Positions 58,701-61,700 of a stretch of 64,000 nt of DNA are shown here, one piece after another. Made by a program: the position numbers. The DNA lies in the NCBI RefSeq assembly GCF_055900595.2, contig NZ_CM148325.1, one strand, 5' to 3'. Every line of letters begins with the position of its first letter. The first letter of the stretch is position 1.

Positions 58701-61700
58701 AGACAATAGTTAAACCGCCATTTAATCCGTTCCGGCCAAATTGCTGCTCCGTGTAAGCATCGTTCCTGTCCAGTTCTATTTCATTCCAGTTAGATAAAAC
58801 AAATTTTTCGTCAAATAACATAAATGGCAATACTGCTGTCCAGCCAACAACATAACCATTCCAACCATTCGTTTGACCATATTTAGCTGATACGTAGTCA
58901 CCAGATTGATTATGTAATCCAATATACGGTTTAAAAAAGCCCCACTCGCCGTTCCAGCCGAGATAACCGAATCCATAAAACATGTCCAGATCGTCACCCC
59001 ATGAGTTATCCCATTGGCCATAAATTTTGCCAAAGAATGTCATATCAGAGTCAAAGAGTCTGACATGCGTCATTGCTGAAACCGTATGATTTCTCCCTGC
59101 TACAGCATGATTGAGTACATTACTTTCATAAAATGAGTAAAATTCTGCTTCTTTAAAATTTACCCCAAAATCCGCAGTCACTTTCCATACTTCACCACGG
59201 TGAGTGTTTACAAATCCACTATTCCAGTCTGCATAACCCGCATTTATTGAACCAAAGGTTCCTTTATATTCTAATGAAGAATATGCAGGAAAATGATAGA
59301 TAGCTGTTATCAGGGTACACGCAATAAGAAGTCGTCTTTTGGCAGACATATATTATGTTCTCCATTCATTGTTTTTATGATTCCATAGGAATTAATACAC
59401 CAGATAATTCATTTTGATTAAGAACGACTCAGAAAGTATATTTAAAGGTGAATGGCAAAGCGTGATGGAGATCGCAGATTACTTTTACCCCCGGGTGTGG
59501 AGGTATCGTGTTTCAAAAAGTGTGTCGATTTTAAATATCACTCATTGATTTATAAACATTTTTCCTCACAAAAAGAAAATTCAATTCTGTACAAGAATAT
59601 TTTGTATCTTCTATTACTTTCTCCAGTAATAACTCACCATTCAGGCATAACTTAAACCTCTTGTTCATAATCTCAACTTTTGTAAATGAAAACGCACATA
59701 AGAGTTAAAATAAACAATGTACTAAAGATTAATTACGCAAAAATGCGAGGCGTCTTCAGGATTAGAATCGATAAAACAGAATGGGTTAAAGAGAGCGATA
59801 TAATAGCGGCGGGTGCTTGAGGCTGTCTGTCTCAGGCATTAGCTGAACGGCAGATAGAGAAAAGCCCCGAGTGATATTTTACCATCAACCCGAGGCCCCC
59901 TATATGCAGAACACATGTAGAGTGCCTCTTACTGACCGTAAGGTCAAGGAGAAGAGAGCAATGAAGCAGCATAAGGCGATGATTGTCGCCCTGATCGTCA
60001 TCTGTATCACCGCCGTAGTGGCGGCGCTGGTAACGAGAAAAGACCTCTGTGAGGTTCACATCCGAACTGGCCAGACGGAGGTTGCTGTTTTCACGGCTTA
60101 CGAATCCGAGTAAGAGCAACGGCGGGGAGTGATCCCCGCCACTTTACAGGTGCTCGCATATCTTCAACGCACCCTATTTTTACCCAAGCCTGCCCACAGG
60201 CAGGCTTTTGGGGAGGTTAGCGAGTCAGGTCGTCAAAAAACTTCTTCACACCATCAAAGAAGCTCTTTGAACGCGGGCTGTTGTGCTCACCGGTTGGGCC
60301 ACCGAAGCTTTCCTGCAGCTCTTGCAGCAGCTGTTTCTGCTTCTCGTTCAGACCTACCGGTGTTTCGACGACAACGCGGCACAGCAAGTCACCTTGCGCA
60401 CCGCCGCGAACAGACTTGACGCCTTTACCGCGCATACGGAACAGCTTACCGGTCTGGGTTTCGCCAGGCACTTTCAGTTTGACGCGACCATCAAGGGTCG
60501 GTACTTCGATTTCGCCACCCAGCGCTGCCATAGCGAAGTTGATCGGGACTTCGCAATACAGGTTGTTGCCTTCACGCTCGAAAATCGGGTGCTGTTTAAC
60601 CTGAACCTGAACGTATAGATCGCCTGCCGGTGCGCCATGCTCGCCCGCTTCACCTTCGCCCGCAAGACGGATGCGGTCTCCAGTGTCCACTCCTGCCGGG
60701 ATTTTAACGGACAGCGTTTTGCTGCGCTCAACACGACCATGACCATGACATTTGTTGCACGGATCTTTGATCAGCGTACCGCGGCCCTGACAGTGTGGAC
60801 AGGTCTGCTGTACAGCGAAGAAGCCCTGGCGCATCTGCACCTGACCAGAGCCATGACAGGTCGGACAGGTCTGCGGCTGTGTACCTGGTTTTGCACCGCT
60901 ACCGTGGCAAACGTCACACTCTTCCAGAGTCGGAATGCGGATCTCTTTGGTCACGCCACGTACAGCTTCTTCGAGGGTGAGCTCCATGTTATAGCGTAAA
61001 TCAGCACCGCGCGCCGCACGTTGACGACCACGTCCGCCGCCAAAAATATCGCCGAAAACGTCACCAAAAATATCGCTGAAGTCTGCGCCGCCGCCAAAAC
61101 CGCCGCCGCCCATGCCGCCTTGCTCAAACGCAGCATGACCATACTGATCGTATGCCGCACGTTTTTGCGAGTCGGTCAGAACTTCATAAGCTTCCTTGAT
61201 CTCTTTAAATTTCGCCTCGGCCTCTTTGTCACCCTGGTTACGGTCCGGGTGGTATTTCATGGCCAGGCGTTTGTAGGCCTTTTTGATTTCACGCTCTTCC
61301 GCTGTTTTGGAAACGCCTAAAATCTCGTAATAATCTTGCTTAGCCATCTTTTTTGATTTGCCCCTAGATGAATGCACGGGCGGAGAGGAAATTCCCCTTC
61401 GCCCGTGTCAGTATAATTACCCGTTTATAGGGCGATTATTTTTTGTCTTTGACTTCTTCAAATTCAGCGTCGACAACATCGTCATCTTTCGCGTTGTTTG
61501 CAGAAGCATCAGCACCGGCAGTCTGCTGCTGGGCATGTTGCTGCTGGGCGATTTCCATCAGTTTCTGGGAAACCTGTGCCAGTTCCTGCATTTTCGCTTC
61601 GATAGCGGCTTTGTCTTCACCTTTCAGAGCAGTTTCCAGTGCAGTCAGCGCAGACTCGATAGCAGTTTTGTCGTCAGCCGGCAGTTTGTCGCCTGCTTCT

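What the first reader, a model, noticed from the sequence alone, without database searches (positions are those of the whole stretch)
59858..60213. Intact hokC/mokC/sokC locus without the IS186 copy found nearby in K-12
HokC is intact and the mokC frame is open, with a hairpin terminator shared with convergent dnaJ. K-12 as I recall has IS186 between hokC and dnaJ; here only about 100 bp separates them, so this represents the uninterrupted arrangement.
Basis: partly seen in the sequence, partly recalled or inferred. Interest (0 to 1): 0.3.

Follow-up and report, generated by a model that had tools for sequence, protein, structure and literature searches.

The report
Intact hokC toxin-antitoxin locus, no IS186
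This is an ordinary, complete copy of the E. coli hokC/mokC/sokC toxin-antitoxin locus next to dnaJ, in the uninterrupted form that about 70% of E. coli genomes carry and that was described in 1999; K-12 is the variant with an insertion sequence there.

Summary

- **What is there.** Window 59811-60208 (+) encodes a full hokC mRNA. It holds hokC (59961-60113, DNA-identical to K-12), in-frame mokC (59904-60113, one change against K-12, L2Q, which is the commoner allele), and antisense sokC (59912->59854).
- **Distance to dnaJ.** 103 bp separate the hokC stop from the dnaJ stop.
- **The K-12 difference.** K-12 carries a 1339-bp IS186 with a 10-bp duplication (GGAGTGATCC) in the hairpin just after hokC. 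The window has one copy of that target and no IS186 ends anywhere.
- **How common this is.** 3791 of 5425 complete E. coli genomes are uninterrupted like the window.
- **Predicted regulation.** Folding reproduces the published hok switch. The full-length RNA pairs its 5' end (tac) with 60162-60174 (fbi) and hides the mokC ribosome site. 3'-trimmed RNA refolds into the Sok-sensitive form. The K-12 transcript lacks fbi.
- **Caveats.** The tac/fbi match alone is not better than shuffles; support for it is comparative. The "shared terminator" has a U-run only on the hokC strand. The IS-free hokC of strain ECOR24 is reported not to mediate post-segregational killing.
- **Side note.** IS186 sits at this site in both orientations in different strains, so it is an insertion hot spot.

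The parts
59776..59804 (+). Putative hokC/mokC promoter: -10 TATAAT at 59799-59804 and a weak -35 around 59776-59781.
   Evidence: Read from the sequence. It lies 7 nt upstream of the Rfam-defined 5' end. It is identical to K-12 except 59779 G/A. Inferred; the consensus scanner did not call it.
59811..60208 (+). Full-length hokC/mokC mRNA, about 398 nt; the 3' end is inferred at the U-run after the terminator hairpin.
   Evidence: The 5' end is Rfam model position 1. The fold has MFE -167.9 kcal/mol, z = -7.1 against shuffles.
59811..59822 (+). tac element (5' end GGGUGCUUGAGG). It pairs with fbi in the full-length RNA and with ucb in the 3'-trimmed RNA.
   Evidence: Rfam consensus structure.
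59862..59869 (+). ucb element (AAGCCCCG). It pairs with the mokC Shine-Dalgarno in the full-length fold and with tac in the trimmed fold.
59854..59912 (-). sokC antisense RNA gene, 59 nt. Its 5' tail is complementary to the mokC start region, followed by a terminator-like hairpin and UUUUCUCU.
   Evidence: Mapped from the K-12 ncRNA annotation. Fold -23.1 kcal/mol. It differs from K-12 sokC at two positions, 59898 and 59908.
59919..59947 (-). Putative sokC promoter: -35 TTGACC at 59947->59942, a 17-nt spacer, and a weak -10 CACTCT at 59924->59919.
   Evidence: Read from the sequence. It is identical to K-12 and sits 7 nt from the annotated K-12 sokC 5' end. Inferred.
59904..60113 (+). mokC ORF, 69 codons plus stop, in frame with hokC; Shine-Dalgarno GAGG at 59892-59895.
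   Evidence: L2Q against K-12; Q is found in 6 of 8 other strains compared.
59914..59928 (+). dcb element. It pairs with the mokC SD/AUG region (59892-59906) in the trimmed RNA to form the Sok-target hairpin.
   Evidence: RNAs ending at 60150 or 60141; Rfam consensus hairpin.
59961..60113 (+). hokC toxin ORF, 50 codons plus stop; Shine-Dalgarno AAGGAG at 59946-59951.
   Evidence: Pfam HOK_GEF E=1.8e-24. DNA identical to K-12 hokC.
60099..60102 (+). TACG motif at HokC Tyr47, the position reported to be A-to-I edited (Tyr to Cys) in K-12 hokC mRNA.
   Evidence: The sequence is identical to K-12. Editing is reported in PMC12214031 and was not tested here.
60121..60140 (+). G+C-rich 3'-UTR hairpin (GGCGGGGA-GUGA-UCCCCGCC). 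It holds the empty IS186 target; 60126-60135 GGAGTGATCC is the sequence duplicated in K-12.
   Evidence: Fold -18.5 kcal/mol. IS186 junctions in K-12, Z1323CEC0010 and LR-62-2.
60162..60174 (+). fbi element (CUUCAACGCACCC), complementary to tac with one bulged C at 60168.
   Evidence: MFE pairs. The same motif sits at stop+47..63 in prophage hok homologs and varies only at the bulged base. Compensatory differences occur in the NR1-type and Vibrio-type loci.
60186..60209 (.). Terminator hairpin (9-bp stem 60186-60194/60199-60207, loop CACA) with a U-run at 60206-60209 on the + strand. It lies 8 nt beyond the dnaJ stop.
   Evidence: Folds of -21.6 kcal/mol (+) and -21.0 kcal/mol (-). The scanner did not call it because there are only 4 T. 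Two window-specific substitutions: 60187 changes a G·U pair to A-U, and 60198 is in the loop.
60217..61347 (-). dnaJ, the convergent neighbour.
   Evidence: ORF list; annotation of matching genomes.

Best explanation
The region is a complete chromosomal hok/sok-type type I toxin-antitoxin locus (hokC/mokC/sokC) in its ancestral, IS-free arrangement next to dnaJ.

Inferred mechanism, by homology with hok/sok of plasmid R1:
1. A roughly 398-nt mRNA is made from 59811 to the hairpin and U-run at about 60208.
2. In this full-length form the 5' tac element pairs with the 3' fbi element (60162-60174). The ucb element covers the mokC ribosome-binding site. The RNA is therefore neither translated nor bound by SokC.
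3. Slow 3' trimming removes fbi. tac then pairs with ucb, and the mokC start region forms the hairpin that ribosomes or SokC can recognise.
4. SokC (minus strand, 59912->59854) pairs with the mokC start region and the duplex is cut by RNase III. If SokC is lacking, mokC translation permits translation of the membrane toxin HokC.

In K-12 and about 30% of E. coli genomes this stretch is interrupted, in K-12 and many others by IS186 in the hairpin at 60121-60140. The insertion detaches fbi and the terminator from the mRNA. The window carries the undisrupted version.

Shown here: the sequence features, collinearity with K-12, population frequency, and predicted folds. Inferred: transcription ends, processing, and toxicity.
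For: - Rfam RF01794 matches over its full length at 59811-59963, E=1e-27.
- Pfam HOK_GEF matches HokC at E=1.8e-24.
- The hokC CDS is identical to K-12. Only 3 substitutions occur across 59738-60136, none in hokC.
- K-12 annotation places IS186A, mokC, hokC and sokC in the homologous positions.
- The K-12 IS186 is 1339 bp with a 10-bp duplication GGAGTGATCC. The window has a single copy and no IS186 ends.
- 3791 of 5425 complete genomes are uninterrupted.
- The full-length MFE pairs 59811-59822 with 60162-60174 and ucb with the mokC SD. Trimmed RNAs switch to tac-ucb and SD-dcb.
- K-12 RNA reading into IS186 folds directly into the trimmed-type structure.
- The 3'-UTR layout (GC hairpin, then CYUCAAnGCACCC, then terminator) is conserved in 50+ distinct prophage hok loci, with variation at the bulged base.
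- NR1-type loci pair GGCGCUU with AAGCGCC, and a Vibrio plasmid locus pairs GGGUGCUCUUGG with CCAACGAGCACCC. Pairing is kept through changes on both sides.
- Literature: the tac/fbi/ucb/dcb model (PMC9841398); IS186 downstream of K-12 gef/hokC disrupts fbi, while ECOR24 hokC lacks it (PMC3562002); mokC-sokC dsRNA depends on RNase III in K-12 (PMC7373196).
Against: - The tac-fbi duplex energy in this single sequence (-18.3 kcal/mol) is not better than dinucleotide shuffles of the 3' UTR: mean -16.4, and 364 of 2000 shuffles reach it. The element is supported by conservation and compensatory change, not by this sequence alone.
- Both promoters have weak hexamers and the scanner called neither.
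- No expression, processing or toxicity data exist for this strain.
- IS-free hokC of ECOR24 reportedly did not give post-segregational killing and was not activated by rifampicin (bioRxiv 10.1101/2025.08.07.668861, citing Pedersen & Gerdes 1999). An intact structure therefore does not prove physiological activity.
Confidence: 0.9

Rival explanations
1. The locus is structurally intact but physiologically inert. HokC is rarely or never made at toxic levels. Reasons could include weak promoters, efficient SokC control, and a need for low-level TadA editing of Tyr47 to Cys. On this view the locus persists as a near-neutral relic rather than a working killer or persistence module.
For: IS-free hokC (ECOR24) reportedly failed to mediate post-segregational killing and was not activated by rifampicin (bioRxiv 10.1101/2025.08.07.668861). 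hokC mRNA editing is only about 9% in K-12, and the cysteine at the position aligned with HokB residue 46 (Tyr47 in HokC) is supplied only by editing (PMC12214031). Roughly 30% of genomes tolerate disruption of this stretch, in K-12 and many others by IS186.
Against: The HokC coding sequence and every regulatory element are conserved almost without change across divergent strains. That argues for purifying selection. The HokC coding sequence is reported toxic on overexpression (bioRxiv 10.1101/2025.08.07.668861).
Confidence: 0.4
2. The empty site is secondary. An ancestor carried IS186 as in K-12, and the element plus one duplication copy was later lost by precise excision or replaced by recombination with an IS-free allele.
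For: A precisely excised site cannot be told apart in sequence from a never-occupied one. Recombination is frequent in E. coli, and IS-bearing alleles occur on different backgrounds, for example LR-62-2 with the OmpK/sulfatase island and K-12 without it.
Against: The empty state is the majority, 3791 of 5425 genomes. The same single hairpin is found in prophage hok paralogs. IS186 is found in both orientations at the site, which indicates repeated gains. Precise excision of an IS is rare (general knowledge).
Confidence: 0.05
3. The hairpin at 60186-60207 is essentially the hokC terminator alone. dnaJ transcription reads through it into the hokC 3' UTR, so it is not a truly shared bidirectional terminator.
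For: The U-run is present only on the + strand. The minus-strand tail is UUGGGUAAAAAU. The scanner called neither strand.
Against: It is the first stable hairpin after the dnaJ stop, 8 nt away, and is equally stable on both strands at -21 kcal/mol. A-tract/U-tract hairpins often act in both directions (general knowledge).
Confidence: 0.35

Closest known systems
hokC (gef)/mokC/sokC of E. coli K-12 MG1655 (b4412/b0018/b4413)
   Same: The position next to dnaJ is orthologous. The hokC CDS is identical. The promoter regions are the same (one difference, 59779 G/A, in the putative hokC -35), as are tac, ucb, dcb and the 3' flank. Identity is 99.25% over 59738-60136.
   Different: K-12 has the 1339-bp IS186A inserted at 60126-60135 with a 10-bp duplication, which detaches fbi and the terminator. 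K-12 MokC has Leu2 (Gln here) and K-12 sokC differs at two bases. K-12 lacks the OmpK-like/sulfatase island on the other side of the locus.
IS-free hokC/sokC of E. coli ECOR24 (Pedersen & Gerdes 1999, as summarised in PMC3562002 and bioRxiv 10.1101/2025.08.07.668861)
   Same: It is the same locus without IS186 and with the fbi element retained.
   Different: The transcript was described there as about 330 nt, whereas the 5' end to terminator distance here predicts about 398 nt for the unprocessed form.
hok/mok/sok of plasmids R1/NR1
   Same: The architecture and predicted refolding pathway are the same: tac-fbi lock, ucb over the mok SD, a dcb hairpin as Sok target, a GC hairpin after the stop, and a terminal terminator. 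The mRNA length is similar (model in PMC9841398).
   Different: Hok proteins are only about 41% identical. mokC is in frame with hokC, whereas R1 mok is out of frame with hok (the latter from my own knowledge). The tac/fbi sequences differ in a compensatory way. Plasmid stabilisation is shown for R1 but reportedly absent for chromosomal hokC.
Prophage-borne hokD/hokE/hokW-type loci (IMG/VR contigs L010-L088)
   Same: Toxins are 82-88% identical. The tac sequence is the same and the fbi motif is nearly so (CYUCAAnGCACCC). A GGGG-N-CCCC hairpin follows the stop codon. One locus (L071) also carries IS186 in that hairpin.
   Different: They lie in prophages rather than at dnaJ. They have their own terminators and variable leader lengths of 300-326 nt from 5' end to stop.

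Membership tests
[quoted passage not shown] | Small (about 50 aa) hydrophobic Hok/Gef toxin ORF | tested here: met
   Pfam PF01848 HOK_GEF, 85.5 bits, E=1.8e-24, above the cut-off of 22. Identical to K-12 HokC. The NCBIfam Hok subfamily model matches below its cut-off, 46.8 against 73 bits.
[quoted passage not shown] | Overlapping upstream mok reading frame whose initiation region is the antisense target | tested here: met
   ATG 59904 opens a 69-codon frame ending at the hokC stop. The SokC 5' tail is complementary to 59899-59912, which includes that ATG (coordinates).
[quoted passage not shown] | cis-encoded antisense Sok RNA gene with its own promoter and terminator | tested here: met
   The sequence is homologous to the annotated K-12 sokC ncRNA with 2 substitutions. 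A terminator-like hairpin and U-run are present. The promoter is inferred only. Expression is not testable here; K-12 mokC-sokC dsRNA was detected experimentally (PMC7373196).
[quoted passage not shown] | Conserved hok mRNA leader structure (tac-ucb stem, Sok-target hairpin) | tested here: met
   Rfam RF01794 matches positions 1-157 of 157, 116.9 bits against a gathering score of 59. The same pairs appear in the MFE of 3'-trimmed RNA.
[quoted passage not shown] | 3' fbi element complementary to the 5' tac, located between the post-stop hairpin and the terminator | tested here: met
   12 pairs between 59811-59822 and 60162-60174 in the MFE. The motif and its position are conserved in homologs and vary at the bulged base. 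Pairing is kept through changes on both sides in the NR1-type and Vibrio-type loci.
[quoted passage not shown] | tac-fbi complementarity exceeds chance in this sequence alone | tested here: inconclusive
   Duplex energy is -18.3 kcal/mol against a shuffle mean of -16.4, sd 2.2. 364 of 2000 shuffles do as well.
[quoted passage not shown] | Toxin kills when Sok is lost (post-segregational killing or rifampicin activation) | not testable with these tools
   The literature reports that IS-free hokC of ECOR24 did not show this (bioRxiv 10.1101/2025.08.07.668861).
K-12-type IS186-disrupted hokC allele | IS186 (23-bp terminal repeats, transposase) between the hokC stop and dnaJ, with duplicated GGAGTGATCC | tested here: not met
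   No IS186 end sequences occur in the whole window. The target is present once, and the window is collinear with the K-12 flanks.
Bidirectional intrinsic terminator shared by hokC and dnaJ | Stable G+C-rich hairpin followed by a U-run on both strands | tested here: inconclusive
   The hairpin is stable on both strands, -21.6 and -21.0 kcal/mol. The U-run (4 U) is on the + strand only, and the consensus scan called neither strand.

The most novel reading that the evidence does not exclude
The GGGG-N6-CCCC hairpin just after the hok stop codon may be a recurrent IS186 landing pad. IS186 sits at the identical 10-bp target in both orientations in different strains, and in the equivalent hairpin of a prophage hok paralog. 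E. coli populations could therefore carry a standing polymorphism between a 'lockable' hokC mRNA with fbi, as in this window, and an 'unlockable' one without fbi. If selection maintains both states, this would be a natural IS-driven regulatory switch for a toxin, not mere decay. A further untested possibility in IS-free strains is that heat-shock-driven dnaKJ read-through across the weak minus-strand terminator produces antisense RNA to the hokC 3' end.
Probability: 0.1. Interest if true: 0.35.

Novelty: already known. Interest (0 to 1): 0.07.

Why it matters
It matters little beyond annotation. The window carries the wild-type form of hokC/sokC with its complete 3' regulatory region. This form, rather than the K-12 allele, is the one to use when studying chromosomal hok regulation. 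It also shows that K-12 is the less common, derived state at this site. The population figures are a small extra: about 30% of complete genomes are interrupted here, and IS186 occurs in both orientations at one target.

Tried and rejected
- **Shuffle test of tac-fbi duplex energy.** It was not significant, so I do not claim that the complementarity in this one sequence is beyond chance.
- **Consensus promoter/terminator scan.** It called neither the hokC nor the sokC promoter, nor the 60186-60207 hairpin. Those features are inferred from homology and hand inspection.
- **Pedersen & Gerdes 1999 (PubMed 10361310).** The paper is not held. Its content is cited only through PMC3562002, PMC12214031 and bioRxiv 10.1101/2025.08.07.668861.
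- **Four plasmid hok homologs (L091-L094).** They were fetched for covariation but have rearranged or truncated 5' leaders (relE or IS150 next to them) and no Rfam hit. They could not be used for tac.
- **Variation among E. coli hokC alleles.** tac and fbi are invariant among them, so there is no within-species covariation.
- **Junction counts for the two IS186 orientations.** 841 + 953 exceeds the 1634 interrupted genomes. The counts probably include paralogous hok-IS186 junctions and are treated as upper bounds.
- **Formal covariation statistics.** I did not run the count of structure pairs, because only about four distinct tac/fbi types were in hand.
- **IS remnant in 60114-60216.** Rejected by the alignment.

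Full report
**What is in the sequence.**
- The plus strand holds a 50-codon ORF at 59961-60113. It reads MKQHKAMIVALIVICITAVVAALVTRKDLCEVHIRTGQTEVAVFTAYESE.
- It matches Pfam HOK_GEF at E=1.8e-24.
- An in-frame ATG at 59904 opens the 69-codon mokC frame, which ends at the same stop.
- dnaJ is on the minus strand at 60217-61347, and dnaK lies beyond it.
- The non-coding gap between the hokC stop and the dnaJ stop is 60114-60216, 103 bp.
- Rfam RF01794 matches 59811-59963 on the plus strand over its full length, 116.9 bits, E=1e-27. The family is named 'sok', but it is effectively the hok mRNA leader: the match ends at the hokC AUG. It is the only hit in the neighbourhood, and the whole-window scan repeats it.

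**Comparison with K-12.**
- MG1655 is annotated dnaJ, IS186A (1345 bp as annotated, containing insL1), mokC/hokC, sokC, nhaA.
- Window 59738-60136 matches the K-12 hokC side at 99.25%. Window 60125-60399 matches the dnaJ side.
- After removing the 1339-bp IS186 and one copy of its 10-bp duplication (GGAGTGATCC), K-12 and the window are collinear.
- The hokC CDS is identical. The differences are 59779 (promoter region), 59898 and 59908 (within sokC and the mokC start region; 59908 makes MokC L2Q), 60187 and 60198 (terminator hairpin), and synonymous dnaJ sites.
- Six of the eight other strains aligned (K-12 included) share the window's bases at 59908, and seven share 59898. The K-12 bases are the less common ones.
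- The two hairpin substitutions are specific to the window. One turns a G·U pair into A-U, and the other is in the loop.
- No IS186 terminal repeat occurs anywhere in the 64-kb window.
The one mokC change is a common allele.

**How common the arrangement is.**
- A 601-bp query spanning hokC to dnaJ is covered at 80% or more in one piece in 3791 of 5425 complete E. coli genomes.
- The rest mostly break at query position 437, which is window 60136, the IS186 site.
- The uninterrupted state is therefore the majority.
[quoted passage not shown] PMC12214031 repeats that hokA, hokC and hokE of K-12 are considered inactivated by insertion elements.

**Regulatory elements and predicted mechanism.**
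- The published model is summarised in PMC9841398. Full-length hok mRNA is locked by pairing of the 5' tac with the 3' fbi, and ucb covers the mok Shine-Dalgarno. 3' trimming frees tac to pair with ucb, and the mok SD then pairs with dcb. That form is translatable and is the Sok target.
- Folding window 59811-60208 (398 nt) gives -167.9 kcal/mol, z = -7.1. In that fold:
  - 59811-59822 pairs with 60162-60174, with one bulged C;
  - 59864-59869 pairs with the mokC SD at 59891-59896;
  - the mokC AUG pairs with 60157-60161.
- Removing the 3' end (RNAs ending at 60168, 60160, 60150 or 60141) switches tac to 59862-59868. For the two shorter RNAs, the 59892-59906/59914-59928 hairpin of the Rfam consensus also forms.
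- K-12 RNA reading 200 or 340 nt into IS186 adopts that second structure directly. This matches the idea that the IS removes the lock.
- SokC maps to 59912->59854 from the K-12 annotation. It has a 5' tail complementary to the mokC start and a terminator-like hairpin.

**How strong the fbi evidence is.**
- Taken alone it is weak. The tac/3'-UTR duplex energy is matched by 364 of 2000 dinucleotide shuffles.
- The comparative evidence is better. Fifty-six distinct prophage hok loci (82-88% toxin identity) share one layout: stop codon, a GGGG-N-CCCC hairpin, about 20 nt, CYUCAAnGCACCC, then a terminator. Most of the variation within that motif falls on the base predicted to bulge.
- In plasmid NR1-type loci, tac GGCGCUU faces AAGCGCC. 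That is a U-A to C-G exchange relative to hokC.
- In a Vibrio plasmid locus, GGGUGCUCUUGG faces CCAACGAGCACCC.
- This is a small sample, so I did not compute formal covariation statistics.

**The 'shared terminator'.**
- The hairpin at 60186-60207 is equally stable on both strands, about -21 kcal/mol.
- On the hokC strand it is followed by UUUU. On the dnaJ strand it is followed by UUGGGUAAAAAU.
- The consensus scanner called it on neither strand.
- It is a plausible hokC terminator and at best a weaker one for dnaJ.

**Function.**
- Structural integrity does not prove activity.
- IS-free hokC from ECOR24 reportedly neither stabilised plasmids nor responded to rifampicin (bioRxiv 10.1101/2025.08.07.668861).
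- hokC needs low-level TadA editing of the TACG at Tyr47 (window 60099-60102) to gain a conserved cysteine (PMC12214031).
- In K-12 the mokC-sokC pair forms RNase III-dependent dsRNA (PMC7373196).
- I therefore rate 'complete, correctly regulated locus' at 0.9. Whether it is physiologically active is open.

**Side observations.**
- IS186 occupies exactly the same target in both orientations in different strains: K-12 and LR-62-2 in one, Z1323CEC0010 in the other.
- Junction searches find up to 841 and 953 genomes for the two orientations.
- A prophage hok paralog (L071) has IS186 in the equivalent hairpin.
- The post-stop hairpin of hok genes is therefore an IS186 hot spot. This fits the element's known preference for G+C-rich targets (cited in PMC3903273).

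**Verdict.** The feature is real, correctly identified and fully explained by existing knowledge. It is already known and of low interest.

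Noticed in passing
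window 60121-60140; loci L001, L007, L008, L071: IS186 is inserted at the identical 10-bp target (GGAGTGATCC) of the hokC post-stop hairpin in both orientations in different E. coli strains. Junction searches give up to 841 and 953 genomes, which are upper bounds. A prophage hok paralog (L071) has IS186 in the equivalent hairpin. This is a recurrent insertion hot spot.
   Followed up: partly
window 57074-59349: A small island between hokC and nhaA is absent from K-12. It holds an OmpK/Tsx-like outer-membrane channel gene (58588-59349, minus strand) and a sulfatase gene (57074-58567, minus strand). A 7-kb query that includes the island is covered at 80% or more in 1272 of 5425 complete E. coli genomes.
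   Followed up: partly
window 55968-56980 (minus strand): The gene annotated elsewhere as an 'IS1/IS1595 family N-terminal zinc-binding domain protein' is 415 aa in strain 2016C-3878. In the window it carries a deletion of about 271 bp, leaving two overlapping ORFs of 179 and 182 aa. It is probably a pseudogene.
   Followed up: partly
window 47257-53547: A decayed chaperone-usher fimbrial cluster lies on the far side of nhaR. It contains a fimbrial subunit (48973-49503), an IS1 transposase (49817-50317), a truncated PapD-type chaperone (50606-51013), and an usher split into two ORFs (51415-52065 and 51978-52571). The flanking ORFs of 490 aa and 227 aa have no Pfam match. K-12 has only IS1A in the corresponding region (from my own knowledge).
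   Followed up: partly
window 60099-60102: The TACG motif at HokC Tyr47, reported as a TadA A-to-I editing site (Tyr to Cys) in K-12 hokC mRNA, is conserved here (PMC12214031; sequence).
   Followed up: no
window 61348-61425 (-), 36760-36812 (-), 7506-7577: There are other Rfam hits at gathering score: tpke11 between dnaK and dnaJ, ES003 sRNA, and a naRNA4/REP-type element that matches on both strands.
   Followed up: no
window 55000-62000: The closest complete E. coli genome over this 7-kb stretch is only 98.4% identical (strain EC42405, bovine). Only 20 of 5425 records reach 99% or more. The window's lineage is therefore not closely represented among the complete genomes. The organism was not identified further.
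   Followed up: no
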